DNA from: a virus
Reading direction: 5' to 3' (one strand)
Length of the DNA: 25,992 bases
Virus record (IMG/VR): IMGVR_UViG_3300025736_000003
Position numbers and translations under genes: made by a program
The notes under the pieces: model-generated
Seen by the model: only the letters and a program-made list of their open reading frames with translations
Databases searched by the model: none
Told to the model about the DNA's origin: nothing
In this document: in pieces, positions 1-25,992 of the stretch
Layout: each line of letters begins with the position of its first letter
How positions within the stretch are numbered: position 1 is the first letter of the stretch

Positions 1-127
1 TGTGTATAACCCTATATCCTTCCTTCTCAGCATACTTTTTACAATATTCCTTCTGCTGTGCTATATTTTGTTGCTCGTCGTCTGTAGAGATTCTAGTGTA
101 TATTATTGCTTCCTTAACCATAAATTA
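1..127. repeat. Terminal overlap identical to 25866-25992 (circular-assembly signature); contains the first 121 nt of the recombinase gene
   Basis: Base-by-base comparison of the first and last 127 nt shows 100% identity. Minus-strand translation of 121..1 gives MVKEAIIYTRISTDDEQQ..., the same N-terminus as the CDS at 25489..25986. Confidence 0.9.
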
Positions 128-217
128 AATTTCCACCCTTATATTCTACAAATTCATTTCTTTGTATCCAGCTAAGGATTTTATCTTTTGTTAATCTATC
201 CATTCGTCTTAGGTTTG
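119..217. repeat. 99-bp perfect direct repeat, copy 1 (starts at the recombinase start codon and covers its upstream region)
   Basis: The string cataaattaaatttccaccc...cattcgtcttaggtttg at 119-217 is identical to 734-832 (offset 615 bp). Confidence 0.9.
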
Positions 218-683
218 TTAGGCGAATTTAGATAATCTTCCAGCTCATCCCAGAATCCTAATTGTGCTTCTATAATTTCTAATAAATCTTCTCTTGAGGT
301 TTCTTCACTAATAAAAACAAAGGTTGCATGTTTTATTATTTCTTGTATTTTTTTTATATCTTTATTGTCCATTGTTCCTATTAACTATCTATTACGTTCC
401 TCAACTTCTTTTAGATGTAATTGATAATCTTCCGTTTTCATCCATTCGGAATATTTACAATTATCAGAAAAGCAATCCATTAATGCTCCGCCACCATCTG
501 AACTAACTAGACATCCACATTTTAACTCTCTTTCAAATGTTCTACCCATTGTTCTTGTCTCCTGTAAATTGCTTTAACTGTTTGACACCTTAAACAAAGT
601 CTCTCTTTTCCAAATGAATTGTCGCCACATCTAATCGGTGTTCCGTTTTCATATGCCAGTAATACTCCACATCCCATCGTATT

Positions 684-902
684 CTAATCAGATTGCGAAT
701 ATAGTTTATTTATGAATGCTTCTAAATCATCAGCATAAATTAAATTTCCACCCTTATATTCTACAAATTCATTTCTTTGTATCCAGCTAAGGATTTTATC
801 TTTTGTTAATCTATCCATTCGTCTTAGGTTTGGACTGCAACTTCTTAAACCACCTTTAGATTTCTTCCATGGCGGATCTATCATTAAAATATCATATTTC
901 AT
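684..902 (-). CDS. Small DPPW-motif protein (72 aa), possibly a fragment or accessory subunit of an amino-methyltransferase
   Basis: IDPPW at residues 8-12 resembles motif IV of N6-adenine/N4-cytosine methyltransferases. Its start overlaps the stop of the upstream gene in an ATGA arrangement. It is too short to be a complete methyltransferase. Confidence 0.4.
   Translation of the reverse strand: MKYDILMIDPPWKKSKGGLRSCSPNLRRMDRLTKDKILSWIQRNEFVEYKGGNLIYADDLEAFINKLYSQSD
734..832. repeat. 99-bp perfect direct repeat, copy 2 (inside the 72-aa DPPW ORF)
   Basis: Identical to 119-217; encodes roughly residues 24-56 of the ORF at 684..902. Confidence 0.9.
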
Positions 903-1549
903 TCTTGCGACCCCTTCTTTAGATTAAGCGTCGAAAATATTTCATGGAATAATGCTGGAGGTATTATTGACCTTTCTTTATTTCCTTTTAACCCCTGTGT
1001 TCCTGTCTTGCTTCCTCTCGGTGCTGCTTCGTGATGGCAATGTTTAGCTCGTCCTTTTAGGAAGTTATGACATGTCTTTGGTTCCCATCCTGGTAAGTTA
1101 GTCCATATGTCTGTAGGTTTTGCTCTTGTGTCTCCGTATTGGCAATACCATGCGGTTTTTCTGCAATCAGTCGGTAAGAACCATCTAGCTCTTGCTCTTG
1201 GGTTTTCTATGAAGAATATTTTATTGTTCTTGTTGCAAAATCTCGCAATCATCAAACAAAAGTCCAATAACTCCTTACCTAGTCTTGCAGCATCCGTTTT
1301 CGGAGATCGATCTGCGTTCCAATGAGTATTCCCCGCAGCCATACTGAAAGTAGTACATGGTGGAGACATCCAAACAACATCAGCCTCTCTTATTTTATTC
1401 CAAATCTCTTCAGTTAATCCATTGTTTAAGTCTACTGTTACATCACAATTAAACTTTGGATTATTGTCTACTGTGAATGTTTCGCATCCAAGTTCCTTAG
1501 CAACCTTACTAAAACTACCTGTTCCTGCGAATAGTTCTACGGTCTTCAT
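899..1549 (-). CDS. AdoMet-dependent DNA methyltransferase-like protein (C5-cytosine type motifs), 216 aa, unusually short
   Basis: ELFAGTGSF (motif I, FxGxG) at residues 5-13, SPPCTTFSMAAG (PC catalytic motif) at 62-73, FFIENP (ENV-like motif VI) at about 111-117, and a GN....IPP motif-X-like C-terminus. AGGAGA lies 7 nt upstream of the ATG. Confidence 0.6.
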   Translation of the reverse strand: MKTVELFAGTGSFSKVAKELGCETFTVDNNPKFNCDVTVDLNNGLTEEIWNKIREADVVWMSPPCTTFSMAAGNTHWNADRSPKTDAARLGKELLDFCLMIARFCNKNNKIFFIENPRARARWFLPTDCRKTAWYCQYGDTRAKPTDIWTNLPGWEPKTCHNFLKGRAKHCHHEAAPRGSKTGTQGLKGNKERSIIPPALFHEIFSTLNLKKGSQE

Positions 1550-1682
1550 TGTGACTTCTCCTGCGACGCATTGTGGACAAATGTCGTATTCTCTTCCAAT
1601 TGTTTTTTTATCTGTTTTACCATTTTGTGTTTGCCCGAAGACTTGTGGGTAGAAAAATATCCGACTAATCTATAATATTAAT

Positions 1683-1975
1683 TTGACCTTGACCTTGACC
1701 ATGACCTTGACCATGACCCTGACCCTGACCCTGACCCTGACCCTGACCATGACCATGACCTTGACCCTGACCTTGACCCTGACCCTGACCATGACCCTGA
1801 CCCTGACCCTGACCCTGACCCTGACCCTGACCCTGACCATGACCCTGACCCTGACCCTGACCATGACCATGACCTTGACCCTGACCTTGACCCTGACCCT
1901 GACCATGACCCTGACCCTGACCCTGACCATGACCCTGACCATGACCTTGACCCTGACCTTGACCCTGACCATGAC
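1683..1975. repeat. Tandem hexanucleotide array (C/T/A)TGACC, about 49 units, with a higher-order duplication
   Basis: Direct reading shows a perfect 6-bp period with variation only at unit position 1. A block of about 65 bp recurs at roughly 1748 and 1863. All frames are open across it, which explains the four ORF-track entries here. Confidence 0.9.
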
Positions 1976-2009
1976 TTATCATAACACACACGAAGTATTA
2001 TTGCGTTAC

Positions 2010-2387
2010 TCATTTTTGCTCCGTTGGGAGTTTAAAGTCTATTTTAAATAAGTCTAACACAGCTTCTCTGTTTATTATAACTTCTGCATCTTTTGGATAT
2101 GGTTCTACTTCATCAAAACTTCCATTTTTACATGCACTTTGCCATCTACCCGTGTCTGGAATCCAACAAGCTTCAGCTAAAACTAATTCTTTATCACTTG
2201 ATTTGATTAATCTTCCTGTATAAATCATTGTTACTGTTCGGATTAAATAGGGTTCTCCTAATTGATAAAATCCTTTTGTTTCAGTCGTTGCTTTAGTTTT
2301 TTGTTTATCTAAAGTTTCTAGTTCTTTTTTAAGGTCTTCAAAGCTTAATTTGTTTAAATCTTTTTTTACTATTTTATTTACCTCCAT
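2010..2387 (-). CDS. Hypothetical protein (125 aa)
   Basis: ORF in the co-directional minus-strand block; no motif recognised. Confidence 0.45.
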   Translation of the reverse strand: MEVNKIVKKDLNKLSFEDLKKELETLDKQKTKATTETKGFYQLGEPYLIRTVTMIYTGRLIKSSDKELVLAEACWIPDTGRWQSACKNGSFDEVEPYPKDAEVIINREAVLDLFKIDFKLPTEQK

Positions 2388-4481: not shown

Positions 4482-4578
4482 TAGAACAACTAGAACAACT
4501 AGAACAGGTGATGTCCACTCAATTCTACATATGGAAAGTAAGTGGGGTTTGCCTGTTCTTCTTGTTCTACCTGTTCTA
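4482..4578. promoter_or_regulatory. Inverted arrays of AGAACA(A/G) repeats (3 + 3 copies) around a 43-bp spacer: candidate origin or operator
   Basis: Three tandem tagaacaac/tagaacagg units at 4482-4508 and, on the opposite strand, cctgttct/tcttgttcta/cctgttcta at 4552-4578. The right arm overlaps the last codons of the primase-helicase gene. Confidence 0.45.
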
Positions 4579-6189
4579 TTTGATAATTTCACCCTTAAAT
4601 TTAATTCCAACCCATGCCCTTCCCTTCTTATTTATATCCCATGGAAGATATTTTAATTTCTGTTCAATCCCTAATTGTTTCATTTTACTACCAATTACTA
4701 CATCTGAAATTTCTCTAAACCTATTTTCTTTACACCATTCGTTTAACTTTTTAGAAAAATCATTTTTCCATACTACACCATCAGAGTCTTCTTCTGTAAA
4801 TTCTTTAAGGAATTTTTCTAAAGGATTACTATGATCCTCATATTTTTTCATTCTATCTTCAATTGTACCTTCATTAGTAAATTCTCTTTTCTCTAATAAA
4901 TCTTTTAATATTAAAGAACATTTAACAGTTAGTGCTTCATATTCCTCATCTGGTATCTCAGATAATATATCTTTCTTTTCTGAAAATTGGTTTGGAAAAT
5001 CTATAATCATCCATCTTCTATAAAATCCAATAGTTTTATCATTTGTGGCTGGAAGATTATTAGTAGCAATCATTATTTTAGCATAATTAATTTCTTCAAA
5101 AGGATCTTTATTTTTATACTCAAACCCTATTAAATCTCCACCTGATAATTTCTTTAAGATAGAAGTTTTATTCATTTCTGAAAAATTAGTTTCTCCCATT
5201 TGACAAACTAATTTTTTATGTAATCGGGTAACCTCAAATCTACTTTGTAATAAAGTATCTAATTCTGTTGAACAGCAATTACTGCCCCCAATAAATTTCC
5301 TGAGTAAATTTAAGAAACAACTTTTACCATTCATACCACCACCAATAAAACAAAAGATTCTATGGATAGGATAATCTGGAATTAAACAATATGCTAATAT
5401 TTCATATAAGGTTTGAACGTGATCCTTCCCAACCCATTCCTCAAATATTTTGTCCATTATGGGAGTTTCATAAAATCCATCTTCATTTAATTTCCATGGT
5501 ATTGGATTAGTAACAAATAGATGTGGTGTTGCCCTTGATTGCTCCCCTGTCTTAATATTCATTATAGTATTTTCAAATTGAACTGTATATTTTCCTATTG
5601 GGGCCGGAATATTTAATCTACTTACTTGTTTAAGAGCTTCAATCATCTCATTTTTTTCCTTAGAATTTATTGTGTTTATTGTTGCTTGTTTATCAACTGC
5701 ATTTAATATATCAGTTTCATCTACTCTTTCCCATTTTGTTTCTGGCCAATTCCATAACCACCAACTTCTAGAATTATCATATAAACAGGGTTGTATTTCA
5801 ATAATATGTTCTGCTAATTCTTTTTTATCGAACATATTCCCAAGTTTTTCTGTTAAATTTTCGACAGGATAATTTTTCTTTTCATTTTCTTCAATAGTTC
5901 TTTTTTGTTTTTTAAAATAATTTAATTGTTCTTTAAGAAGAGTAATTTTTCTACCAGTTTTTTTAGATAAAATTTTTAACGCATCATCTATTTCTAAAGG
6001 GGACAACCCTAAGATATTTTTTAACTCTTTTATTACTTCATCTGACGATGATATTTTTATTTTTTTATCATTTATTAATTCAATAAATCCGTTATCAATA
6101 TATTCCTGTTCATCCCCTCCTGGAAAACTCGCCTCTTTTATCTCTCCAGCTTTCCCACCAGCATAATTTTTTAATATTTTAATTTTCAT
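4576..6189 (-). CDS. D5/P4-family primase-helicase (SF3 helicase domain), 537 aa
   Basis: D5_N-like segment with SRSWWLWNWPETKW. Walker A FIGGGMNGKS (the GxGxNGKS form typical of P4-type primase C-terminal domains), motif C IMIATNNLP, and YRRWMIIDF as an arginine-finger region. Confidence 0.8.
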   Translation of the reverse strand: MKIKILKNYAGGKAGEIKEASFPGGDEQEYIDNGFIELINDKKIKISSSDEVIKELKNILGLSPLEIDDALKILSKKTGRKITLLKEQLNYFKKQKRTIEENEKKNYPVENLTEKLGNMFDKKELAEHIIEIQPCLYDNSRSWWLWNWPETKWERVDETDILNAVDKQATINTINSKEKNEMIEALKQVSRLNIPAPIGKYTVQFENTIMNIKTGEQSRATPHLFVTNPIPWKLNEDGFYETPIMDKIFEEWVGKDHVQTLYEILAYCLIPDYPIHRIFCFIGGGMNGKSCFLNLLRKFIGGSNCCSTELDTLLQSRFEVTRLHKKLVCQMGETNFSEMNKTSILKKLSGGDLIGFEYKNKDPFEEINYAKIMIATNNLPATNDKTIGFYRRWMIIDFPNQFSEKKDILSEIPDEEYEALTVKCSLILKDLLEKREFTNEGTIEDRMKKYEDHSNPLEKFLKEFTEEDSDGVVWKNDFSKKLNEWCKENRFREISDVVIGSKMKQLGIEQKLKYLPWDINKKGRAWVGIKFKGEIIK

Positions 6190-7313
6190 TCTTCAACCAC
6201 ATCTTCTTTATTTTTTATTCTAACTTTACCATTACAATAAGGATAATCCTCACAATACCAAAAAACATTATAACCACCATTTGCTTTTCCTATCTTCATA
6301 CCCTTATTACAAAGAGGACATTTTTGTTTTACAAAAGAATTAACTGTAATATTTTTTAATTCTTCTTCTATTATATTTGTTACTCTCCCACGACATCTTT
6401 CAATTATTGGTGGAATAGAATTTTCAAATTCACTAAGAACATTTTGACAAGTTTCTTTTACTGAATATATATTTATATTGTCTGCTATATTTTTTAATTC
6501 CTCTAATTTTGAATTGTTTATATCTATTAAATTTATTTCATTCTCCGAATATTTCTTAATAGAATTTTTACTCTGTTTAACAACCTTATTTATATTATCC
6601 TCAAATAAATTAAGTTTAGCATCTATAACTTCACCATAATTATTAATTCTTTTTATAAAATTATTTTCCTTATATTCCTCTAACTCAGATAATAATTTTC
6701 TATGAGATTTAATTTCTATATTATCATATTTTAATTTCCAATTAGATGTGAAATCTTCTTTGGTAAACCATACCCCACTAAACCCCTCTATAACTCTACT
6801 ATAATGTCTTTCTATAGTTTCATCATCGTGCTGTTTACTTAATTGTATCTCAAAAAATAATCCTAAGCCATATTTTGGATGAAACTCCTTTAATAAAACC
6901 ATAACATCTGTAATTACATATTCTTCACCAACTGTTCTATATTCTAATAATATATCTTTAACAAGCGTCTTGTTTAATGGAACATTATCAATTTTTATTT
7001 CTCCAGAATATATCCCAGCATAAACATTTTCTTTTGCCTTTTTATGTCCATAACTTTCTCCATTCATATTACTTTTTAATTTGGGTTGGTTTGGCATAGA
7101 CCTAAAATATGCATGAACGATTTTATCATTAGCCTTAGAAAAAGATTTAACAAAAATCATCTCTACCTCTTCACCTTCATTACAGTATACTGGTGTCGCA
7201 ATCAACTTTTCTTTTTCTCTTCCTATCCATGTAGCATCGTTTTCAAATTTAAAAGCAGTAACTAGTTTTTGTGTTTCTTTATGTATAACAGAAATATATT
7301 TTGCGTCACTCAT
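6186..7313 (-). CDS. Replication-associated protein with C-terminal topoisomerase-type zinc ribbon (about 375 aa)
   Basis: C-terminal CPLCNKGMKIGKANGGYNVFWYCEDYPYCNGK matches the C4 zinc-ribbon pattern of topoisomerase I C-terminal fingers. ATGA-coupled to the helicase gene downstream. I placed the start at the ATG at 7313, which is ATGA-coupled to the upstream ORF; the track start at 7328 is TTG. Confidence 0.55.
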   Translation of the reverse strand: MSDAKYISVIHKETQKLVTAFKFENDATWIGREKEKLIATPVYCNEGEEVEMIFVKSFSKANDKIVHAYFRSMPNQPKLKSNMNGESYGHKKAKENVYAGIYSGEIKIDNVPLNKTLVKDILLEYRTVGEEYVITDVMVLLKEFHPKYGLGLFFEIQLSKQHDDETIERHYSRVIEGFSGVWFTKEDFTSNWKLKYDNIEIKSHRKLLSELEEYKENNFIKRINNYGEVIDAKLNLFEDNINKVVKQSKNSIKKYSENEINLIDINNSKLEELKNIADNINIYSVKETCQNVLSEFENSIPPIIERCRGRVTNIIEEELKNITVNSFVKQKCPLCNKGMKIGKANGGYNVFWYCEDYPYCNGKVRIKNKEDVVEE

Positions 7314-7546
7314 TTTATATTTATCCAATATAATTTATTAAGAATTTTATTTATTAAGAACTCTTTATTTGCAGGGCATATAGTTAGATCACCAACTTGT
7401 AATTTTCTACCCATATTTTTTTCTAAACACTTTATACATAATAAATCAGCATCATTATTATATTTTTCCCAAAGATTATTATTAATCATATAAAAATTAT
7501 TAGTATAGGTAATATCTAAACCACATTTATCACATTGGATATTCAT
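7310..7546 (-). CDS. Small zinc-ribbon protein (78 aa)
   Basis: CDKCG ... CIKC pairs; ATGA-type coupling with both neighbours. Confidence 0.45.
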   Translation of the reverse strand: MNIQCDKCGLDITYTNNFYMINNNLWEKYNNDADLLCIKCLEKNMGRKLQVGDLTICPANKEFLINKILNKLYWINIK

Positions 7547-7779
7547 TCTCCCACCTCTTCTTCATAATCTTTAATATCAAATATCTCGTCGAGAAATAAC
7601 CTTTCCTTTTTCCCTTGGATTCTTAAATCCTCAAACCAATAAAATGTTTCGTTCTCTAATTCAGAATGAATAATACCATTAGCAAAACCAGTAGGAACTT
7701 TTTTAACATGACATTTAAGTTTCTCTCTATAGTAGAAATTAGCTTTCTGTTTCACCGCTTTTTGTATATCTTTTTCCAT
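7543..7779 (-). CDS. Hypothetical protein (78 aa)
   Basis: ORF coupled to the downstream gene; a UUCG-tetraloop hairpin (acacc-ttcg-ggtgt on the minus strand) sits just upstream of its ATG. Confidence 0.4.
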   Translation of the reverse strand: MEKDIQKAVKQKANFYYREKLKCHVKKVPTGFANGIIHSELENETFYWFEDLRIQGKKERLFLDEIFDIKDYEEEVGE

Positions 7780-7919
7780 TGCATTCCAACACCCGAAGGT
7801 GTGATATAATCAATTAACTATCCTTTATAATATTTTACCAGAACTACATAATAGTAACACAATAAAAAAATCCAACAACAACTATATAAAGAATGAGAAC
7901 CTTTTAATTCTCTACTTCT

Positions 7920-8276
7920 TTATTTGATGGCCGCAATATATAAAGCATTCAACTTAGTCTCGTTAAAACTTCTCTTAGTCTTCCCATTAATAACTTTCTC
8001 TTTAAAATCCCTACCCGTCCAATCTCTAGCATTAGTTACTTCCTTATCACAAAGTTTAGCTACCTCATATTCAAAATCATCGTCGATATTCATATCGGGT
8101 TCATCTAAATATAATTGCATACTTTTCCCACCACAATCAAAAGTTACTACTCCTTCATGTCTTGTATTTGTATCAACTGGTTTTGGGGTAAAAGTTGCTT
8201 TATCTAAAAGGGTTACTCCAGCAACGGCTACACCAATCATCATTATTGCCATCAAAACAATTATTTGTTTTTTCAT
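7920..8276 (-). CDS. Secreted protein (118 aa)
   Basis: N-terminal MKKQIIVLMAIMMIGVAVAG signal-peptide-like segment. Confidence 0.5.
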   Translation of the reverse strand: MKKQIIVLMAIMMIGVAVAGVTLLDKATFTPKPVDTNTRHEGVVTFDCGGKSMQLYLDEPDMNIDDDFEYEVAKLCDKEVTNARDWTGRDFKEKVINGKTKRSFNETKLNALYIAAIK

Positions 8277-8277
8277 T

Positions 8278-10089
8278 TTAATTTACCTCCCTAATATATT
8301 TATAAACCCAAACTCCGTTACAAATAGAATCATCCAATCCTAATCTTGAACTCCCACTCATATATCTTACAACACCTTTAGCAGTATTATTAAATATAAA
8401 GTTTTCCATTGTCCATTCAACTCCTTCGTTTTGACAAGCCGCCTCAAAATAAACCGTTTCTGCCTGATTTGTTTCACAATAATTTCCACTCCAATTCATT
8501 TCGCTATATTGAAAATTTGGAATGGCTGAAAAACAAGTCCCACCAGTATTATTCAAATAAACATTATTGAATCTTACAATATGATTTGGGTCTGCATAGT
8601 TTCTCCAAAATTGTTTTATTCCATAGCTATTTGTATTTAGCATTGTAACATTATTACCCTCGACAATAGTGTTTTCACTTCTAGGAAATATTGCTATTCC
8701 AGTCGTTCCAGTATTAATCCCATAAATTGTATTGTTAATAACTGAGGTATCTTTATTTGAATTAGTCGAGCCTGTCCCTTGAATCTGTATCCCACTTCGT
8801 CCATTATAAGAAATGTAGATAGTATTATTTATTATATCATTTCTATTTGAAATAAGGGCGGCTCCAAAAACTATTGGATTTCTGTTTCCTGTTGTGTTAA
8901 TCCAATTATCTCTTATAATATTATCATTGTGAGTTCCAGTATTAAAATGTATAATACCATCTTGAATTTTGTTATTTTTAACTATATTATTACTTGCCCC
9001 GTTGTAGATACTTATAGAGTTAGCAATTCCGAAAAAGTTATTTTTTTCTATCAGATTATTATTATTATTTGTATGAAAACTTATTCCATTTGAAATACCC
9101 GTCAAGGTGTTATTAATATAATTATTATAAGAACAGCTTGAATAACATTCTATATTATCAGTCCCCCCCGTGAAGGTTGTTACATTATTTCCAGTAATAT
9201 TTGTATGAATTACACCAACCATATAAATTCCGTTTTGGGTAGTTCCACCGTTGGCAGAAGTAACATTATTATTATTTATGTTTTCATAATCCCCTCTTAA
9301 ATAAACGGGATAATTATTGTTTCCAGTATTTCCAGCCTTAACATTACAATTTTGCAAAGTATTTCTATCAGAACCATACGCCATATAAACTCCATATCTT
9401 GAACTTGAATAAGTTGTTCCGTAAGTTATATCATATCCATCGCAATCAAGAATTATATTGTCTCCAGTAAAAGTCATACAAGTTCCTGTCGATGAAACAC
9501 TTACGTTCAATTTATAATTTTGGTTGCTTGTTGCGAAAGTAGAACAGGCTGTCACATTTGTATAAGCTAAATTCATTCCGTCTAAAGTTTGCTTAAATTT
9601 TAGAGTTAAAGTTTTCTTATCTTTGCTCAAATCCCAAGAGCAATTTATCAAACACTCTTTATCAAAATCGAAGATTTGTCTGAATTCATTCCATTCATCC
9701 TTAGGATTCTTTTTATAAGTATATGCGGATAGCGTCTTAAAATCAGGATTAATTTCTTCAAGCAAAATTATATCCGAATCACTTTTTAAAGTATAAATGA
9801 AATCTTTTAATGAATCACTTTTTGTTGTTGGTTTAATAATATATTTTCCTTTCTCTTCTATAAAATCTAAATCATAAGATTTTGAAGATAAAAAGGTATC
9901 TTCTTTAAGTTCTATGTTCGCACTATTCCAATCGGTATCAAAAACTATTTTATTGCTATCCTTACTAATTAATGTTATACTAGAAGATATATCTTCTCCA
10001 ATATTTGAATCTAAATCACTTCCAAAGATTAAAGGTAGAATACCAATTAACAATATTAGAATAGAAAAATATATAATTTGTTTTTTCAT
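8278..10089 (-). CDS. Secreted right-handed parallel beta-helix repeat protein (603 aa), receptor-binding/adhesin- or depolymerase-like
   Basis: Signal peptide MKKQIIYFSILILLIGILPLIFG. Many about 22-aa repeats of the form NNxI.G.N.....GI (NNIVKNNKI, NIIRDNWI, NDIINNTIYIS, SVINNTIYG, NTIVEGNNVT), typical of pectate-lyase-fold beta-helices. Dense NxS/T sequons. Confidence 0.65.
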   Translation of the reverse strand: MKKQIIYFSILILLIGILPLIFGSDLDSNIGEDISSSITLISKDSNKIVFDTDWNSANIELKEDTFLSSKSYDLDFIEEKGKYIIKPTTKSDSLKDFIYTLKSDSDIILLEEINPDFKTLSAYTYKKNPKDEWNEFRQIFDFDKECLINCSWDLSKDKKTLTLKFKQTLDGMNLAYTNVTACSTFATSNQNYKLNVSVSSTGTCMTFTGDNIILDCDGYDITYGTTYSSSRYGVYMAYGSDRNTLQNCNVKAGNTGNNNYPVYLRGDYENINNNNVTSANGGTTQNGIYMVGVIHTNITGNNVTTFTGGTDNIECYSSCSYNNYINNTLTGISNGISFHTNNNNNLIEKNNFFGIANSISIYNGASNNIVKNNKIQDGIIHFNTGTHNDNIIRDNWINTTGNRNPIVFGAALISNRNDIINNTIYISYNGRSGIQIQGTGSTNSNKDTSVINNTIYGINTGTTGIAIFPRSENTIVEGNNVTMLNTNSYGIKQFWRNYADPNHIVRFNNVYLNNTGGTCFSAIPNFQYSEMNWSGNYCETNQAETVYFEAACQNEGVEWTMENFIFNNTAKGVVRYMSGSSRLGLDDSICNGVWVYKYIREVN

Positions 10090-11619
10090 CTAACAGCCTC
10101 CATAAAATATTCCAGTATCATTATATTTAGTAGTTCCAATACAAGCAAATTCTTCTACATATACAGCTTCGGTCATATTAACATTAGCTCCAATTTCAAA
10201 AATCCCATCGCCTGTCTCTGGATATAATTTTAAGTTTGGTGCATTATTCTTTAAATCAAATTCCCAATCAATAGTAGTAGTGTCATCAACAATATCATAT
10301 AAGCTAAATAGCCCAGGTTGTATTAGAGAATTATAATGAGTGCCCGTTGTCCAATCTGTGAAATCTGTTGCGTCTGTAACAAATAATATTGGAGACCCTG
10401 CAATCGCATCCATAAATCCATAAAAATAATTCCCAGAAATTCCATATCCTTCTATATCCCAATCCCCAGTAGCAGTCGAGCTACCGTCTGATTTCCAATA
10501 ATTAGAACTTCCATTCCAATTCCCATTAAAATAATCTGCTGTTATATTTGCTGTAGTTGTTATATCATTATCTTTAAAATTAACATCACCATCAGCTTCA
10601 ATAACCATTCTTTCATTCGAATATCCATTTGTATAGAATGCTAAGTCTGTTGCTACTTCTGTCCCCATTGAAAATCTCCCGTCGTTATATCCATAATAAC
10701 TAAAAATAAAATCTGTTGGAGAATAAACATCATTATAAAATAATCCTGTCCAATAACTTGCATCTGTATTTTGGTGAACTTCAAATGGTGCATAATTTAC
10801 ACTTGTTGTTTCACTACCCATTAAAAAACTTCCAGCAGTATTTGTTACACTTAATCCTGTTGATGATACACTTCCAGTTATATTAGAGTTTCCACTTACT
10901 TCTAAATCTCCTCCTATGTCTGCGTCGTCACCGACAAACAAATCATCCCAAGATATAATATCACCAATATTAGTTTCTATGTTTCCTGCTATAGCATAAA
11001 TATCTCCACCAGCAGAAGTTATTGCCCCGTTGGCACTAATAATTCCACTCGAAGTTATATTATCGAAAATTGAATTACCAATTACTTCTAATGTTCCATA
11101 GAACTTACTCGTTTGTAAATTGCCAATAGTTCCAACAAAGAAATTATTTCCGTTTAAAAAATTAATATATGTATTTCCACCGTCAAGAATCAAATCTGCT
11201 AATCCATTTGTAAAAATAGCTTCTCCAAAAATTCCATGATATAGTGAGAAGTCTGTATCAATATTATTACTTATTGTTAAATTATTTGATGTAAATGCTC
11301 CACCATTAATAATATCATTCCCACCCATATCAATATCTCCGGCCATTGTGCATCCGGTTAAAGCACACCACAAAGCATTTCCAAAAGATGTCAAATATGT
11401 TTCGCTAATAGTTAAGATTCCTCCGACGTTGTTGTGCTGGGTGGAATCAACACCTGTTAGAGCACCTATATTTGTTATCCAATTATTTGATGCATTAACA
11501 AAAGCTGTATTATTATCAAAAGGTATAGGGGGTGAATTTAAATCTATACCAATTATACCATCAACACCAGCACTAGAAAAACCAATCATTAAGATTAGCA
11601 ATAAAACCGAGTATTTCAT
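10090..11619 (-). CDS. Secreted Gly/Asn/Thr/Asp-rich repeat protein (509 aa), fibre/adhesin-like
   Basis: Signal peptide MKYSVLLLILMIGFSSAG, followed by low-complexity Gly-rich repeats (GGDLEVSGNSNITGSVSSTG...). Confidence 0.55.
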   Translation of the reverse strand: MKYSVLLLILMIGFSSAGVDGIIGIDLNSPPIPFDNNTAFVNASNNWITNIGALTGVDSTQHNNVGGILTISETYLTSFGNALWCALTGCTMAGDIDMGGNDIINGGAFTSNNLTISNNIDTDFSLYHGIFGEAIFTNGLADLILDGGNTYINFLNGNNFFVGTIGNLQTSKFYGTLEVIGNSIFDNITSSGIISANGAITSAGGDIYAIAGNIETNIGDIISWDDLFVGDDADIGGDLEVSGNSNITGSVSSTGLSVTNTAGSFLMGSETTSVNYAPFEVHQNTDASYWTGLFYNDVYSPTDFIFSYYGYNDGRFSMGTEVATDLAFYTNGYSNERMVIEADGDVNFKDNDITTTANITADYFNGNWNGSSNYWKSDGSSTATGDWDIEGYGISGNYFYGFMDAIAGSPILFVTDATDFTDWTTGTHYNSLIQPGLFSLYDIVDDTTTIDWEFDLKNNAPNLKLYPETGDGIFEIGANVNMTEAVYVEEFACIGTTKYNDTGIFYGGC

Positions 11620-11942
11620 TACTCAAACCTTCCTCTACTCATAAAAAACCATATACCAGATAAGGTTGTAACACCAGTTACAATCAATAGGATAGGGAGT
11701 GTTATTAGCCCAGCTTTAGTAGTCATTACCAAGCTTAATAAAACACAGGATAATGATGCTAGTGTAGCCCATTGTGGCATATCTGCATAACCGGATCTCT
11801 TACTTTGCATTATAGATCCTCTAAGAAAAATTAACATCCATGTAAAAAATAAAATCATAATTGGCAAAGCAGGTATTATCGTCGCAGTTCCTATTAATAC
11901 TTCATCTGGAGTCGTCCCATTTGGAAATTCAAATGTTGCCAT
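11619..11942 (-). CDS. Small polytopic membrane protein (107 aa)
   Basis: Three hydrophobic helix-length segments in the translation. Confidence 0.5.
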   Translation of the reverse strand: MATFEFPNGTTPDEVLIGTATIIPALPIMILFFTWMLIFLRGSIMQSKRSGYADMPQWATLASLSCVLLSLVMTTKAGLITLPILLIVTGVTTLSGIWFFMSRGRFE

Positions 11943-11943
11943 A

Positions 11944-12375
11944 CTATTCGGGTGATCTCCCTAACCATGCTTTAATTGTGAAATATCCAATAATAAAAGT
12001 TATCATTGTTACAAATGTTATGGCAATAAAACTAAATTCCCTACCAAATATTATAAAGAACCCAGTATTAAATGAAGAGATAGCTAAACTCATCGCAGTT
12101 AATGGGCCTATTTTAAATTGTGCACCAGTTGATGAATGTTCGTCACCACTTTCAAGTGTCGATTTAAATAATATTTCTTGTGATGTTTCAGATTCTCCTG
12201 AAAGTTTTGTGATGTTGCTTTTTATGCCGGTTTCTAAATTAGCATATCTTGAATCCTGTGCTAAACTAATATCTGAATCGTTATCTATTGCAAATTGAGT
12301 CATAAATATTATTACAGAAACAATAAAAATACCTGTTAATGCTGCTCCAATAATCATTCTTGAATATCCAGCCAT
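11944..12375 (-). CDS. Membrane protein (143 aa)
   Basis: N- and C-terminal hydrophobic helices flanking an acidic middle region. Confidence 0.5.
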   Translation of the reverse strand: MAGYSRMIIGAALTGIFIVSVIIFMTQFAIDNDSDISLAQDSRYANLETGIKSNITKLSGESETSQEILFKSTLESGDEHSSTGAQFKIGPLTAMSLAISSFNTGFFIIFGREFSFIAITFVTMITFIIGYFTIKAWLGRSPE

Positions 12376-14888
12376 TATCTTTTACCACTCCCTTTAATTA
12401 TAACAACAACAACAGCTACGACAAACCATAATATTGTTGCCCCTGCCCCTACAATAGATGTTGAGTATGCTAAGTTTAATCCTATTAACAAAAATGCTCC
12501 AAGTATTAAAAATATACCCGTAATTAATGGATTATCACTTACACCCATACCGAACATTAATAATAATAATACAATAGATGAGAAGATTAAAACTCCTCCA
12601 TATTGATCCTTAGGATTATCTTTTAATAATATATAACCTTCCCTTCTTATATCTCCATTTAAAGCAATCGTCGCATATATTGTAGAGTTGCCAAATGATT
12701 CTGGTATAGTACATAATAGAGTTCCACCTGCAGCATTTAATAAATCAGAACATACAGAGGTATTACCAAAATTATCTATGAGTGTTACGTTCAACTGTAC
12801 AATATTACTAACACCACTAATTATCCCAAAAGTAGAACTTACAACCCTTGTATCTTTATCATAAGTTAAAGATGAGAAGAAATCTGATTCTGTAATTATA
12901 TCAAATAAATCTGTTCCTGTAATTAAAGCATTCAAATTAATTTCACATGAAGTTATAAGAGGATTTTGGCAATTAGCTATTACCTCAGTAAAGCTATCTA
13001 ATAGTTCACCATCTTTAATAAAAAACAAATTATATATAACATCGTTTGGAACTAAGTGTGCTATTGTAAAACCATTAGTACCACTCATAGGTATTTCTAT
13101 AGTTTTAAAAACACCTTCTTCAATATATTTTCTCTGGACTTGAACTATTAAATCAGAAACTGGTATAAAATCTTGCCCCTTATATGTTATTTTAAATTCC
13201 TGTCCTTCAGATTCTGCTAAGTTATATAATGTTATATTTTGTGATCTAGTAGAATTATCAAAAATAAAGTTTTGAACATTATAAAATTCCACAAATTTAT
13301 CTATTGCTGTATATTCAATTACTGCATCCATCCTTAAAGTAGAATTACCAACAGAATTATTCATACAAACTCTAGCAGGATTTATTTTTGAATATTCTTT
13401 TGAAAATTGTATTATTTCCTCAGAGTTATCAGGAAAAGAAAATCTCATATCAAGTTTTATAGAAGAATTTTCTGTTACTCCATCTATTTGTAATTGTGTT
13501 GTTTCATCTACAATGGTAAAATTAAAGATTTGATTAGTAAAAACTGAGCAATCATCAATACTAATTTCAAATATAGTTTGATTTTGTGTAGTAGAATTTT
13601 GTATAAAACCGCTTTCTAAAGAAACACTCCAATAGAATGGCACAACTTCCGTACCATTAACTTGTTGTATATTTTTATTTATTGTTGCGAACCATTCGTC
13701 GTCGTCATATTCCGTAAATGTTGTAGGGTAAGACGTTCCATTATAAACGAATAAAACATTAGTTAATCTCTCAAATGTTATAACTGATATATTTATATTA
13801 AAATTAGAAGTATCACCCTCTAATACATTAGGGGAAAACTCTTCGTTTAAAACACTAAATGGAACAACATTAAAAGTAAAATTATTTTGTGCAAACGTAC
13901 AATTATTGAATGAAGAGTTCTCATAACAAATTTCTGCATTCCAAATATAATTTCCCAAAACAAATTCGTCGATAAACAATGATTCGTTAAATGTTCTATT
14001 TGGAGAAAGAGATATTGTAGTTTGGTTATGTATAGAACTATCATTATTCCATATAAAGTAAGTTACATTTGTTACATTATAATCACCAATAACATCCCCA
14101 CTAACTGTAAAATTTGCACCTATATCTGATATTGTTGAATCATTTACAGGAGAAATTAATTTTATTAATCCACCACCTGAATATGGTAATGCATCACTTG
14201 AATTATAAAGTTCTATTATTTCATCAGGTGTTAGAATTTTATTAAAAATTCCAACCTCATCAATATCTCCGTTCCAAGCATTTGTATATCCAACATTATA
14301 TCCTATCCCAGTTTTCGTACCAACAGTACCCTGCCCTGTCATATTCTCTTTCCAAATAGTATCAATATACATTTGTGTATTAGTTCCATCCCATACTAAC
14401 GTAGCCATATGCCAAGCGTTATCAAATAATCCTAAAACACCTGAGGTATCCCAAGCTATCCCTTCTTGTAATAATCTTATATCTGAACTATAACTTGCAG
14501 ATGTAGCAATACAATTCCCCTTCCCTGTATCACCATTGATACAAAGTAATCTACCTTCCGATCCAGGCTGTGTTGTAGATTTAAACCAAACATTTGCAGA
14601 ATAATCTCCTGTCTGAACACCGCTTGTTCCATAAAGTGAATTACCAGAACCATCATAATTACGTCCATCTATTAATATCCCTGAGGAATTTGTTGTTCCA
14701 GAATTTGTTAAATTATTTGAAGAAACTATATCTGTTAAAACATTGTTATCTAATTTATAATAAGAAGTTATATTATCATTCCAATCAAAACCACTAACTT
14801 GTGTTGAAAACGTAAGGATGAAACATACTACCACTATCAAAAAGATTGATGAGGATGGCTTATACGAAGAGTTTTTTTCAGTTTTCAT
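12375..14888 (-). CDS. Large surface (spike/envelope-like) protein, 837 aa, with N-terminal signal peptide and C-terminal membrane anchor
   Basis: Signal-like N-terminus (SIFLIVVVCFILTFSTQVSG) and about 70 C-terminal hydrophobic residues ending in KGSGKR. Numerous NxS/T sequons. A possible concanavalin-A/LamG-like beta-sandwich near the N-terminus is my inference only. Confidence 0.6.
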   Translation of the reverse strand: MKTEKNSSYKPSSSIFLIVVVCFILTFSTQVSGFDWNDNITSYYKLDNNVLTDIVSSNNLTNSGTTNSSGILIDGRNYDGSGNSLYGTSGVQTGDYSANVWFKSTTQPGSEGRLLCINGDTGKGNCIATSASYSSDIRLLQEGIAWDTSGVLGLFDNAWHMATLVWDGTNTQMYIDTIWKENMTGQGTVGTKTGIGYNVGYTNAWNGDIDEVGIFNKILTPDEIIELYNSSDALPYSGGGLIKLISPVNDSTISDIGANFTVSGDVIGDYNVTNVTYFIWNNDSSIHNQTTISLSPNRTFNESLFIDEFVLGNYIWNAEICYENSSFNNCTFAQNNFTFNVVPFSVLNEEFSPNVLEGDTSNFNINISVITFERLTNVLFVYNGTSYPTTFTEYDDDEWFATINKNIQQVNGTEVVPFYWSVSLESGFIQNSTTQNQTIFEISIDDCSVFTNQIFNFTIVDETTQLQIDGVTENSSIKLDMRFSFPDNSEEIIQFSKEYSKINPARVCMNNSVGNSTLRMDAVIEYTAIDKFVEFYNVQNFIFDNSTRSQNITLYNLAESEGQEFKITYKGQDFIPVSDLIVQVQRKYIEEGVFKTIEIPMSGTNGFTIAHLVPNDVIYNLFFIKDGELLDSFTEVIANCQNPLITSCEINLNALITGTDLFDIITESDFFSSLTYDKDTRVVSSTFGIISGVSNIVQLNVTLIDNFGNTSVCSDLLNAAGGTLLCTIPESFGNSTIYATIALNGDIRREGYILLKDNPKDQYGGVLIFSSIVLLLLMFGMGVSDNPLITGIFLILGAFLLIGLNLAYSTSIVGAGATILWFVVAVVVVIIKGSGKR

Positions 14889-15427
14889 ACATTAAACCTC
14901 CCTTCAGGGCTTCCGGTAAAAAATATTATACCAGCTATAAATGCAATTATTGTCATTATAACAGGGCTATAAATAATTAAATAAGATACAAGTGAAGCAT
15001 CCCTGAGGTTTATACCCAACTCATCTTGCCCAACATAAAACTCTTCATAGAATTGGCTAACCGCTATGCACGTTATTATTAATAATAATACTGAGAATAC
15101 AAATAAAGCTATAACCCAACCATTATGATTATCTCTCATCACAAAAGATAGCGATAGTAATCCAACAATACCAACAATATAAATCAAACCCATAATCAAA
15201 CCAATATTATTTATTATAGAACCAATAGGGGTTAATACTGTTTCTGTATATTCGCTTACATTTATTCCAGGTGCAACTTCTCCTATATCATTAAACGCAG
15301 GGAATATTTCATCAGTTGTGGTTTTAATAACACCCCATCCAATAGTTGCCCCAGCCACAAGTAATACTAGGAATATTAATCCACCAATCAATAATGCTAT
15401 AGCCCATATTTGTCCTTTGTTATTCAT
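14885..15427 (-). CDS. Polytopic membrane protein (180 aa, about 4 TM)
   Basis: Four hydrophobic helix-length stretches; ATGA-coupled to neighbours. Confidence 0.55.
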   Translation of the reverse strand: MNNKGQIWAIALLIGGLIFLVLLVAGATIGWGVIKTTTDEIFPAFNDIGEVAPGINVSEYTETVLTPIGSIINNIGLIMGLIYIVGIVGLLSLSFVMRDNHNGWVIALFVFSVLLLIITCIAVSQFYEEFYVGQDELGINLRDASLVSYLIIYSPVIMTIIAFIAGIIFFTGSPEGRFNV

Positions 15428-15630
15428 TTGTGTTTCTCCGGTAAGTTAGTTAATTCTTCTAGCAACTTTCTATAACTTGGACATCTAGTTGCCAAGTTTG
15501 ATATTTTAGGCATTGTCATTTCCCTGGGCGAACACCTACTCAGCTTCTTTTCCATTCTTGTAGCACCAGCTTTAAATAAGTCTGTAAACAGTGTTTCATC
15601 CATTCTAGCAGTCCTACTCTTTGATTTCAT
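15424..15630 (-). CDS. Small basic protein (68 aa)
   Basis: ORF coupled by 4-nt overlaps on both sides; Arg/Lys-rich. Confidence 0.35.
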   Translation of the reverse strand: MKSKSRTARMDETLFTDLFKAGATRMEKKLSRCSPREMTMPKISNLATRCPSYRKLLEELTNLPEKHK

Positions 15631-16349
15631 TTGAACTCAACACCCCTTTCAATTAACCCAAGCATCTCTTTGCTTAAAACAATCCTTTGAATCATTGCAA
15701 TAATACAGAGAGGGATAATTATAAGATTAGATAACATCATAATAGTAAATATTCCAAATAAGAAACTACCTAACAAACCTGTATCTAAATATGCTATTGC
15801 AATATTAGATGCTATAAAAACTATTGATGTTAATAGAATCCAGACAGACCCCTTCACAACTGGCCTGATATATGCTAATTTTGAAACTTCTAATACAAAT
15901 CCTTGATCGTCACGAGCATCAGTTGGTAAAACGTTTAGAAACATAAATAGTAATCCCATAATAAATATTAAGAAAATAATTAAACCCAAATAAAGAATCG
16001 CAGTTTGGGGCGTAAGAGTATGACCATTATAAGTAACTGGAACGGTATTACATCCGGTATCTTTTTCTACACTATTTCCACAACTATAACAATAAGTAAG
16101 GGTATCTTTTTCTGTTAAATTGCCACCTTCAATTAAGAATGAATAATGAGTCCCATCTTGAGTAGCCTCTATGTTTGAAAATAATAATTCTCCACCATAG
16201 GTAACCCTTGTAAAATTACAACCTGTACAATTATTACATTCTTGATAAATTTCATAATCATCTCCTATTTGTGTAGGTGTTAATTCGACAGCCCCTACAA
16301 AAGTAAAAGCAAACATTAAAAATAATAATAATATTACTTTTTTCCCCAT
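15627..16349 (-). CDS. Membrane protein with Cys-rich ectodomain (about 240 aa)
   Basis: I placed the start at the ATG at 16349 (MGKKVILLLFLMFAFTFVGA, signal-like) because AGGAGG lies 9 nt upstream. A CNNCTGCN...CYSCG...GCN cluster is followed by several TM helices. Confidence 0.5.
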   Translation of the reverse strand: MGKKVILLLFLMFAFTFVGAVELTPTQIGDDYEIYQECNNCTGCNFTRVTYGGELLFSNIEATQDGTHYSFLIEGGNLTEKDTLTYCYSCGNSVEKDTGCNTVPVTYNGHTLTPQTAILYLGLIIFLIFIMGLLFMFLNVLPTDARDDQGFVLEVSKLAYIRPVVKGSVWILLTSIVFIASNIAIAYLDTGLLGSFLFGIFTIMMLSNLIIIPLCIIAMIQRIVLSKEMLGLIERGVEFK

Positions 16350-17131: not shown

Positions 17132-17133
17132 TG

Positions 17134-20787: not shown

Positions 20788-21137
20788 CAATAAACTCTAA
20801 CTAAAAATGTTTTCCCATAATCTTTCGTAACCCACGTTCTGGATTCTATTAAAGAATAAATGTTATCACCATCTTTTAATTTAATTCCTGTATCAATATC
20901 ATTTTTTTGTGGTTGTCTTGAAAAAGTATTTGGTGCTAATCCTAACTTAATCAAACCCACATAATTATTATTATCACCAATATCAATCTTTATATTATCA
21001 AAATCAACAACATCTTTATTATGCTCAACAGCACCATAGATTCCTACAAAAGAACCAATTAATAATACAGATAAGATAGCCGCCACCGAGTATAAAACTT
21101 TAGGGTTGTTTAATAATTGTTTTACTTCTTTATCCAT
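20787..21137 (-). CDS. Small membrane-anchored protein (about 116 aa)
   Basis: I placed the start at the ATG at 21137 (MDKEVKQLLNNPKVLYSVAAILSVLLIGSFVGIYGA, with an N-terminal TM or signal anchor). The track start at 21158 is a GTG lying inside the upstream repeats. Confidence 0.45.
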   Translation of the reverse strand: MDKEVKQLLNNPKVLYSVAAILSVLLIGSFVGIYGAVEHNKDVVDFDNIKIDIGDNNNYVGLIKLGLAPNTFSRQPQKNDIDTGIKLKDGDNIYSLIESRTWVTKDYGKTFLVRVY

Positions 21138-25488: not shown

Positions 25489-25986
25489 CTAAATCTTCTT
25501 ATTTCTTCCAACCGCACCTTTCTTCCGGCCCTTATATTTCCCTTCAGCTTTTGCCCTAGCTATACCAACTGCTCTCTTTATATTAAGATTATCAATATAA
25601 AAAGCATTCATAGCCATTTTAATTCTAAAAGTGAACTTCCCCATAGGATTAACTAAATCAACCATCTCAGATAAAGATTTAATAATAATATTATTTTTAA
25701 TAACAAAACGTTCAAACCAAACGCTATCATAAAAATCTCTGCAAATCCTATCAACATCCTGAACAATTAAATGTACTGTTGGGTTCTCCTCTAAAAACTT
25801 TAACATCCTTTTACCGCCGCTTCGTTCACAAACATTTATCTTACCACTAATCTTATCTCCAATGGTGTGTATAACCCTATATCCTTCCTTCTCAGCATAC
25901 TTTTTACAATATTCCTTCTGCTGTGCTATATTTTGTTGCTCGTCGTCTGTAGAGATTCTAGTGTATATTATTGCTTCCTTAACCAT
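25489..25986 (-). CDS. Small serine recombinase (resolvase/invertase catalytic domain), 165 aa, no obvious C-terminal HTH
   Basis: N-terminal YTRISTDDEQ motif with Arg10/Ser12 arranged as in resolvase/invertase active sites, and a DRICRD motif around residue 80. The protein stops at ...KGRKKGAVGRNKKI, where the HTH domain of typical resolvases would start. Confidence 0.75.
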   Translation of the reverse strand: MVKEAIIYTRISTDDEQQNIAQQKEYCKKYAEKEGYRVIHTIGDKISGKINVCERSGGKRMLKFLEENPTVHLIVQDVDRICRDFYDSVWFERFVIKNNIIIKSLSEMVDLVNPMGKFTFRIKMAMNAFYIDNLNIKRAVGIARAKAEGKYKGRKKGAVGRNKKI

Positions 25987-25992
25987 AAATTA
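25866..25992. repeat. Terminal overlap, second copy (identical to 1-127)
   Basis: Identical 127-mer at both window ends, implying a unit length of 25,865 bp. Confidence 0.9.

What the first reader, a model, noticed from the sequence alone, without database searches (positions are those of the whole stretch)
119..832. 99-bp perfect direct repeat at the recombinase start, bracketing a 516-bp insert
Copy 1 starts at the recombinase start codon and covers its upstream region, which is where res-type recombination sites usually lie. Copy 2 lies inside the 72-aa DPPW ORF. As a result a decayed copy of that ORF (MDRLTKDKILSWIQRNEFVEYKGGNLIYG) ends just at the recombinase start. Perfect identity implies a recent duplication. 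Directly repeated sites next to a resolvase-type enzyme are the substrate for deletion, so the 615-bp unit may be an excisable cassette; alternatively this is an insertion scar.
Basis: partly seen in the sequence, partly recalled or inferred. Interest (0 to 1): 0.65.

Follow-up and report, generated by a model that had tools for sequence, protein, structure and literature searches.

The report
Duplicated methylase fragment beside recombinase gene
A real, perfect 99-bp duplication in a small circular virus-like genome from an Antarctic lake is a leftover piece of a broken methylase gene copied next to a recombinase gene; it marks a spot where near-identical genomes differ by reshuffled blocks, and is not a dedicated recombination site.

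Summary
Bases 119-217 and 734-832 are identical, 615 bp apart, and copy 1 ends on the recombinase start codon. The same arrangement appears in at least two other assemblies, so it is not an assembler artefact.

The window is a closed circle: bases 1-127 equal 25866-25992. The recombinase is therefore complete at 25489-25986. It has a serine-recombinase catalytic domain but no DNA-binding domain.

The repeat is coding sequence. Copy 2 lies in a 72-aa remnant of an MT-A70 adenine methyltransferase. Copy 1 is a secondary copy joined to the recombinase start through a 9-nt microhomology (TAATTTATG).

Other assemblies, identical in the flanks, carry other alleles:
- one lacks exactly the 615 bp;
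- one replaces the insert and copy 1 with a 92-nt stub of a C5-methylase gene;
- one 756-bp contig is a closed 615-bp loop.

The identical recombinase therefore occurs without a repeat pair, and its 81% homologue has no such sequence upstream. No dyad subsites were found.

Best reading: a recent recombination scar and indel polymorphism at a mosaic joint, gained or lost by general recombination. The res-site or cassette idea is not excluded but has no specific support. The deletion and loop contigs could be low-coverage assembly effects.

The parts
119..217 (-). R1: the secondary copy of the 99-bp repeat. Its last 3 nt on the minus strand are the recombinase ATG, and it carries a GGGTGGA Shine-Dalgarno-like motif about 10 nt upstream of that ATG.
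734..832 (-). R2: the copy of the repeat inside the 72-aa MT-A70 remnant ORF. It is native on its upstream (X) side, because P24 and N25, encoded at the start of R, are collinear with P24 and N25 of full-length homologues.
218..733 (-). The 516-bp block between the copies (Y). It holds the 45-nt tail of orf72 (689-733) and three small ORFs: 522-677 (51 aa, Cys-rich), 385-549 (54 aa, Cys-rich) and 196-372 (58 aa, ending 22 nt inside R1).
684..902 (-). orf72: a remnant of an MT-A70 N6-adenine methyltransferase. Its N-terminus MKYDILMIDPPWKKSKGGLR is nearly identical to 182-229 aa homologues that match PF05063.
114..203 (-). orf29: a 29-aa ORF encoded by R1. Its start overlaps the stop of orf58 (ATGGATAG) and its stop overlaps the recombinase start (TATGGTTAA).
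25489..25986 (-). The serine recombinase, 165 aa. It has the PF00239 catalytic domain only (residues 5-151) and a basic C-terminal tail, with no HTH. Codons 1-40 are also present at window 2-121 because of the circular overlap.
119..127 (-). TAATTTATG (minus strand): the 9-nt microhomology shared by the end of R (also at 734-742) and the recombinase start region of the C5-stub alleles. This is the point where alleles V1/V4 and V2/V3 converge.
688..689 (-). The point where allele V1 (window) and allele V2 (L114) diverge. The JGI 3300005935 contig breaks here.
899..1549 (-). A 216-aa C5-type DNA methyltransferase-like gene upstream of orf72. It forms the left, shared flank X.
1..127 (.). The terminal overlap, identical to 25866-25992, which shows the contig is circular. 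The true circle is 25,865 bp.

Best explanation
The repeat is a recent recombination scar at a mosaic joint, not a dedicated site. The genome is a ~25.9-kb circular virus- or plasmid-like element from Ace Lake.

R is part of a degenerate MT-A70 methyltransferase mini-gene (orf72), and copy 2 is the resident copy. The joint 'end of R | recombinase start' arose by illegitimate recombination across a 9-nt microhomology (TAATTTATG). The simplest route is a 146-nt deletion in an allele like V2 (X-R-tail-C5 stub-recombinase), which gives V4 (X-R-recombinase). An unequal, non-homologous crossover then joined a sister genome carrying X-R-tail-Y to V4 just upstream of R. That produced the window's allele V1 (X-R-tail-Y-R-recombinase), truncating the native 3' end of orf58.

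Because the parents were near-clonal, the two R copies are identical. Once present, two 99-bp direct repeats 516 bp apart are a substrate for general recombination (host or viral homologous recombination, or replication slippage). That process can remove the 615-bp unit again. The neighbouring recombinase is not needed for any of these steps.

Shown: the structure, the alleles, the microhomology and the methylase origin of the ORF that contains R2. Inferred: the order of events and the enzymology.
For: - The repeat and its coordinates are confirmed. The same structure occurs in independent assemblies (L098 and L100).
- orf72 matches the N-terminus of MT-A70 proteins that hit PF05063. BLASTP to L108 gives E=7e-13, hhalign gives 98.6% probability, and the Pfam hits are. 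A 65-aa relative, P0002, aligns across the X|R2 boundary with 22/40 identities.
- Alleles occur on a 100% identical background. V2 is L114/L120, with R + tail + a 92-nt C5-methylase stub and no Y or R1. V3 is L113. V4 is L122, lacking exactly 615 bp.
- TAATTTATG occurs at the end of R and again 146 nt downstream, before the recombinase ATG, in V2. V1 and V4 share the identical R|recombinase joint.
- Homologues of orf58 (P0003-P0005, about 70% identity) lie in unrelated contexts. They have different C-termini, and their homology ends within about 10 nt of the Y|R1 boundary.
- JGI 3300005935 contigs break exactly at the V1/V2 divergence point (689) and convergence point (127). This indicates mixed alleles in one sample.
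- The methylase region is mosaic elsewhere too (L099; L083-L091).
Against: - The Y-bearing parent without R1 was not found, so the order of events is inferred.
- No microhomology can be shown at the Y|R1 joint.
- The R-encoded part of orf72 aligns only weakly to MT-A70, and two alternative registers were obtained.
- Three or four alleles on a clonal background, all ending within 9 nt of a recombinase start codon, is more clustering than a passive scar model predicts.
- A closed 615-bp loop contig (L111) together with an exact deletion contig (L122) is what active excision would give.
Confidence: 0.62

Rival explanations
1. Excisable and insertable mini-cassette. R, or a core within it, is the recombination site of the adjacent serine recombinase. 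The enzyme resolves the two direct copies into a 615-bp circle and a 25,250-bp genome, and can possibly re-integrate the circle.
For: - Copy 1 abuts the recombinase start.
- All three expected forms exist in public assemblies: the filled site (window, L098), the empty site lacking exactly 615 bp (L122), and a closed 615-bp loop (L111).
- Both predicted junction ORFs are in the protein collection.
- Several alleles on a clonal background converge at the recombinase 5' end.
Against: - The recombinase lacks any DNA-binding domain, whereas 28 more distant relatives that were checked all have a C-terminal extension beyond the catalytic domain (186-283 aa) that looks like an HTH by eye; no domain search was run on them.
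- R has no dyad-symmetric subsites and is methylase-derived coding sequence.
- The identical recombinase occurs with a single R 146 nt away (V2) or with unrelated upstream sequence (V3). The 81% homologue L002 has no R-like sequence.
- The empty-site allele is explained by a microhomology deletion from V2.
- L111 and L122 come from low-coverage samples. L123, from the same sample as L111, stops 11 nt before R2. From my memory of the program, not tested here, MEGAHIT carries loops formed at k<=99 up to k141. The loop may therefore be a collapsed-repeat artefact.
- A pair of active res sites 516 bp apart should not persist as the dominant allele.
Confidence: 0.1
2. Selected regulatory adaptor. 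R1 is retained because it gives the recombinase gene a ribosome-binding region and couples its translation to the upstream small ORFs, through the overlaps orf58 stop / orf29 start and orf29 stop / recombinase start.
For: A GGGTGGA motif lies about 10 nt upstream of the ATG. The overlaps ATGGATAG and TATGGTTAA are present. The V2/V3 alleles have the analogous arrangement, with a stub ORF ending ...IIYG* across the same ATG.
Against: Two unrelated upstream stubs give the same overlap, so any sequence joined at TAATTTATG provides it. This argues that the overlap is a by-product of the joint rather than a selected property of R. There is no expression data and no conservation in L002.
Confidence: 0.1
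3. Assembly artefact. A 99-mer node (99 is a common k value) was traversed twice, and the real genome has a single R.
For: 99 is a standard k in multi-k assemblers. The window ends in a 127-nt overlap typical of a k=127 final graph. Several contigs from other samples break at or near R (L100 at 119; L001 starts 44 nt before R2).
Against: The final k of 127 or 141 exceeds 99, so both joints X-R-tail and Y-R-recombinase need spanning k-mers. The full arrangement is reproduced in JGI 3300031227 (L098). X-R-Y-R is reproduced in an ENA MEGAHIT assembly (L100), both at 100% identity. X-R-tail is also present in V2.
Confidence: 0.02

Closest known systems
Mosaic joints and direct-repeat-flanked indels in tailed-phage genomes (illegitimate recombination at gene borders, spread by homologous recombination in shared flanks)
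   Same: The novel joints lie at gene boundaries and have 2-9 nt of microhomology. Small 'moron-like' ORF blocks are present in some alleles and absent in others. The flanks are identical. Truncated gene stubs are left at the joints.
   Different: The duplicated segment is long (99 bp) and perfect. At least three or four alleles coexist on an essentially clonal background. All of them converge on the start of a recombinase gene.
res sites and cointegrate resolution by Tn3/gamma-delta-type resolvases
   Same: A small serine-recombinase gene has a repeated sequence of about 100 bp covering its upstream region. The copies are directly repeated, which is the resolution geometry. Forms that look like deletion and circle products exist in assemblies.
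   Different: There is no three-subsite dyad architecture. The enzyme has no HTH domain. The sequence is methylase-derived coding DNA. It is not conserved upstream of identical or orthologous recombinases.
Campbell-type integrated elements with duplicated att cores
   Same: There is a triad of empty site, filled site flanked by identical direct repeats, and a closed circular junction.
   Different: The 'element' is only 516 bp plus R, with three tiny ORFs and no integrase of its own. Serine recombinases normally share only a 2-bp core between sites. The circle is so far only an assembly-graph loop.
Decayed methyltransferase genes in phage early regions (MT-A70, PF05063)
   Same: orf72 keeps the DPPW N-terminus. 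A second mini-ORF, P0002 (65 aa), shows that the same family has been internally deleted in another lineage.
   Different: Here a piece of the remnant has been copied a second time and now supplies the start region of another gene.

Membership tests
res-type resolution site (Tn3/gamma-delta resolvase systems) | Three subsites, each an imperfect inverted repeat of a resolvase-binding motif, within about 120 bp | tested here: not met
   A scan for inverted repeats (seed 6) over 90-250 and 700-860 found only one weak pair that partly overlaps R in each region. There was no subsite-like dyad pattern.
res-type resolution site (Tn3/gamma-delta resolvase systems) | The cognate recombinase carries a C-terminal HTH domain that binds the subsites | tested here: not met
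   Pfam finds only PF00239, at residues 5-151 of 165. The 28 more distant relatives are 186-283 aa, and their extra C-terminal sequence looks like an HTH by eye (no domain search was run). This protein and L002 end in a short basic tail.
res-type resolution site (Tn3/gamma-delta resolvase systems) | The site is conserved upstream of orthologous recombinase genes | tested here: not met
   The 81%-identical recombinase in L002 has unrelated upstream ORFs. The 100%-identical recombinase in L113 and L114 is preceded by a C5-methylase stub.
res-type resolution site (Tn3/gamma-delta resolvase systems) | Recombination between direct copies yields a deletion product and a circle | tested here: inconclusive
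   An exact -615 contig (L122) and a 615-bp loop contig (L111) exist. Both are from low-coverage MEGAHIT assemblies, and the deletion allele has an alternative origin.
Serine recombinase (resolvase/invertase catalytic domain, PF00239) | Full-length match to the catalytic domain, with the N-terminal Y-x-R-x-S motif | tested here: met
   PF00239 E=2e-26, profile positions 1-145 of 145. The sequence reads IIYTRISTDDEQQ. PDB relatives are TP901-1 integrase and Gin/Hin-type invertases.
MT-A70 N6-adenine methyltransferase (PF05063), for orf72 | N-terminal DPPW motif region homologous to family members | tested here: met
   Residues 1-25 are 80-83% identical to proteins of 182-229 aa that hit PF05063.
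MT-A70 N6-adenine methyltransferase (PF05063), for orf72 | Complete catalytic domain of about 170 aa | tested here: not met
   orf72 is 72 aa and has no PF05063 hit of its own. It is a remnant, not an enzyme.
Integrative cassette with duplicated attachment site | Empty site, filled site and circular junction all observed | tested here: inconclusive
   All three are seen as contigs (L122, window/L098, L111), but read-level support could not be checked with these tools.
Integrative cassette with duplicated attachment site | A recombinase that acts specifically on the duplicated site | not testable with these tools
   This needs biochemistry or genetics.
Segmental duplication by illegitimate (microhomology) recombination | Microhomology at the novel joint when compared with the unrearranged alleles | tested here: met
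   A 9-nt TAATTTATG is shared by the end of R and the recombinase start region of V2/V3. The Y|R1 joint could not be assessed because no parental allele was found.

The most novel reading that the evidence does not exclude
The 615-bp unit (R plus three tiny ORFs) is a miniature mobile cassette. It exists as a free circle and is excised from, and inserted into, the methylase-remnant site. The enzyme would be the adjacent serine recombinase, which lacks a DNA-binding domain and would be targeted by a separate small DNA-binding partner such as the conserved downstream 57-aa protein. The several alleles at this joint would then be products of that enzyme's activity.
Probability: 0.08. Interest if true: 0.75.

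Novelty: new member of a known kind. Interest (0 to 1): 0.32.

Why it matters
As it stands, this is a clean natural example of how mosaic joints arise and turn over in a virus-like population. Several structural alleles, including an exact presence/absence of a repeat-flanked 615-bp block, sit on an otherwise identical genome across Ace Lake samples, and the microhomology used at one joint can still be read.

It also serves as a warning. A long perfect repeat next to a resolvase-type gene is not by itself a res site.

If the minority reading were true, it would be a new way of targeting a serine recombinase. That reading is a tiny cassette moved by a recombinase with no DNA-binding domain.

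Tried and rejected
- **Chance or assembler artefact.** Rejected because independent assemblies reproduce the structure.
- **HTH_17 / excisionase-like or IS607-like N-terminal domain encoded by R.** The only support is a Pfam hit at E=0.017, below threshold, and the homology to MT-A70 explains the ORF better. Dropped.
- **Phage database search.** Window 1-1600 gave only an 80-nt methylase match to a PinkBerry-associated phage. Uninformative.
- **Viral-contig scan for the R core.** It found only one near-identical contig.
- **Metagenome scan with orf72.** It gave MT-A70 homologues but no further copies of R. The hit in L110 (VEYKGGNLIY inside a 734-aa protein) was selected by the search pattern itself and is treated as chance.
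- **Genome-contig scans.** There is no R in 185,579 species representatives, and recombinase relatives reach only 35% identity or less. No host or integrated copy was found.
- **Homologues of the two Cys-rich insert ORFs.** None beyond near-identical cluster members.
- **Direct look-up of the 57-aa deletion-allele ORF.** The contig was reached instead through the neighbouring methylase.
- **Downstream 57-aa protein as an AbrB/MazE-like DNA binder.** There is only a sub-threshold hit for the L002 homologue (E=0.0084) and none for the window protein. Left as a lead.
- **P0009 and P0015.** These are the same DNA translated with TAG read through by another pipeline, not fusion alleles.

Full report
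**1. The observation**

The repeat finder reports 119-217 and 734-832 as a 99-nt pair at 100% identity with a spacing of 615. Nearly all genes lie on the minus strand. Read on that strand, the order is as follows:
- a 216-aa C5-type methylase-like gene (1549..899);
- a 72-aa ORF (902..684) that contains copy 2 (R2);
- three small ORFs of 51, 54 and 58 aa;
- a 29-aa ORF encoded by copy 1 (R1);
- the recombinase, whose ATG (121..119) is the last three bases of R1.

The window is a closed circle. Its first 127 nt equal its last 127 nt, so the true circle is 25,865 bp. The complete recombinase gene is 25489-25986(-), 165 aa.

**2. Is it an artefact?**

99 is a common assembler k value, so I checked other assemblies.
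- JGI 3300031227 contig Ga0307928_10008162 (L098) is 100% identical across X-R2-Y-R1-recombinase and across the circular junction.
- An ENA MEGAHIT contig from ERZ27316532 (L100) has X-R2-Y-R1.
- 3300031227 is an Ace Lake, Antarctica, metagenome (PMC9324843).

The duplication is real.

**3. What R is**

The first 25 residues of orf72 (MKYDILMIDPPWKKSKGGLRSCSPN) are 80-83% identical to the N-termini of 182-229-aa proteins. These were found in metagenome contigs (L103, L106, L108) and match Pfam MT-A70, PF05063, over the full profile.
- BLASTP to L108 gives E=7e-13, and hhalign gives 98.6% probability.
- R2 starts inside codon 24. P24 and N25, encoded by R, are collinear with P24 and N25 of the full-length proteins.
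- A 65-aa mini-ORF from a Logan assembly (P0002) aligns with orf72 across the boundary, with 22/40 identities. It is itself an internally deleted MT-A70, made of the N-terminus plus the C-terminal ...IDVFSREKRIGWDVWGNE.
- The R-encoded residues align only weakly, either to the next MT-A70 segment or to the C-terminal segment.

I therefore claim only that R2 lies in its native ORF on its upstream side, and that orf72 is a methylase remnant.

R has no internal dyad pattern. A sub-threshold HTH_17 hit (E=0.017) was not pursued.

**4. The recombinase**

It matches PF00239 only, at residues 5-151. Its best PDB relatives are the TP901-1 integrase catalytic domain and Gin/Hin-type invertases. It ends in a basic tail.

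I checked 28 more distant relatives from viral and cellular contigs. All are 186-283 aa, longer than the catalytic domain, and their C-terminal 45 residues look like an HTH by eye; no domain search was run on them. Only the 81% homologue in L002 (168 aa) shares the short form without that extension. From established knowledge of serine recombinases, the catalytic domain alone does not recognise specific DNA.

**5. Alleles**

Exact-sequence look-ups and neighbouring-gene look-ups recovered several versions of the joint. All are 100% identical to the window in the shared flanks.

| Allele | Source | Structure |
|---|---|---|
| V1 | window, L098 | X-R-tail-Y-R-recombinase |
| V2 | L114/L120, a 25,411-nt circular MEGAHIT contig from ERZ27315525 | X-R-tail, then 92 nt carrying a strong RBS and a 25-codon stub, MKILELFSGYGTASFALKQLGIIYG*, then the recombinase; no Y and no R1 |
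| V3 | L113 | the same stub with a different sequence further upstream |
| V4 | L122, ERZ27316125 | X-R-recombinase, lacking exactly 615 bp |

By inspection, the V2 stub looks like the motif-I end of a C5 methylase.

In addition, L111 (ERZ27316221) is a 756-nt contig. It consists of the 615-nt R+Y unit closed on itself with a 141-nt overlap. The ORFs predicted for the deletion joint (57 aa) and for the circle or tandem joint (44 aa) are both in the protein collection.

Two JGI 3300005935 contigs end at 689 and start at 127. These are exactly the V1/V2 divergence and convergence points, which indicates mixed alleles in that sample.

**6. The joints**

V1/V4 and V2/V3 become identical from TAATTTATG, 6 nt upstream of the ATG. 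The same 9-mer ends R (R2 reads ...AATTTAATTTATG|CTG...). In V2 the two 9-mers are 146 nt apart.

A deletion between them turns V2 into V4 and creates the R|recombinase joint that V1 also carries. Because an identical illegitimate joint is unlikely to arise twice, V1 and V4 share it by descent.

On the other side, orf58 homologues (about 70% identity; P0003-P0005) sit in unrelated contexts. They continue with a different C-terminus, and their homology stops within about 10 nt of the Y|R1 boundary. That joint therefore truncated orf58.

The V1/V2 left joint shares only TG with V3.

**7. Interpretation**

The simplest history uses one ordinary event per step.
- First, V2-like gives V4 by microhomology deletion.
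- Then an unequal illegitimate crossover between a Y-bearing sister genome and V4 gives V1.

In that history the 'deletion variant' is the ancestor, not an excision product. The reverse direction, V1 to V4 by recombination between the 99-bp repeats, is equally possible mechanistically and would also yield a 615-bp circle. Neither direction needs the neighbouring enzyme.

Against a res-like role:
- there is no subsite architecture;
- the enzyme has no DNA-binding domain;
- R is coding-derived sequence;
- the identical recombinase occurs with one R or none nearby;
- R is absent upstream of the closest homologue (L002).

In favour of something more active:
- the clustering of alleles at this one joint on a clonal background;
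- the coexistence of filled, empty and loop forms.

**8. Caveats**

L111 and L122 are short contigs from low-coverage samples. In the L111 sample the flanking contig (L123) stops 11 nt before R2, so a coverage gap could have isolated R-Y-R. The two R ends would then collapse into a cycle at k<=99. From my memory of MEGAHIT, not tested here, standalone loops are extended to the final k. L122 carries one synonymous difference 25 nt from its end. Read-level counts are needed.

**9. Verdict**

The interpretation as a res-type or excisable cassette is only partly supported. The best reading is a recent recombination scar and indel polymorphism at a mosaic hotspot, made from a methylase-gene remnant. 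Novelty is modest.

Noticed in passing
window 1-127 and 25866-25992: The window is a complete circular contig with a 127-nt terminal overlap, giving a true length of 25,865 bp. An independent contig (L098) reads straight through the junction.
   Followed up: yes
window 1684-1975 (ORF 1678-2013, minus strand): A hexanucleotide tandem repeat (TGACCC, about 48.7 copies) encodes a (WSGS/GS)n protein. The array length differs between otherwise identical genomes: 325, 211 and 199 nt between fixed anchors in the window, JGI 3300005935 and ERZ27315525. It is a hypervariable coding repeat.
   Followed up: partly
window 25489-25986 and 25257-25430 (minus strand); L002 2135-2641 and 2715-2891: The serine recombinase has no DNA-binding domain (165 aa; 168 aa in the 81% homologue). 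In both genomes it is followed by a small protein of 57-58 aa. The L002 version gives a sub-threshold MazE/AbrB-like hit (E=0.0084). It could be a DNA-binding partner acting in trans, but this is unproven.
   Followed up: partly
L114 positions 142-233; L113 positions 156-247: In other alleles of the same genome, the recombinase start is fused to a 25-codon stub of a C5-methylase gene with its own strong RBS (GGAGGAGG). Its stop overlaps the recombinase ATG. This is a second methylase remnant at the same joint.
   Followed up: yes
L099 positions 1-407, joining window ~1330-1412: A further mosaic variant (JGI 3300016668). The C-terminal end of an MT-A70-like gene (…ELFAREETEGWDAWGNQ…) replaces the first third of the 216-aa methylase-like gene. 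Mismatches are clustered at the crossover.
   Followed up: partly
L101 645-842 (P0002): A 65-aa mini-ORF made of the first ~22 and last ~40 residues of an MT-A70 methylase is kept as an intact ORF in an unrelated Logan contig. Such internally deleted methylase mini-genes may be recurrent or may have a function of their own.
   Followed up: no
window 6186-20790: Apart from a primase/helicase (4576-6189), the large ORFs (380, 603, 509, 837 and 1218 aa) have no PHROG match. No capsid or terminase was recognised, so the nature of the element (virus or plasmid) and its host remain open.
   Followed up: no
P0009 and P0015 (ENA/NCBI 944-bp contig): Another pipeline translated this same region with TAG read through as Gln. 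That fused orf72 with orf51 and orf54 with orf58. It is an annotation artefact rather than a real fusion.
   Followed up: partly
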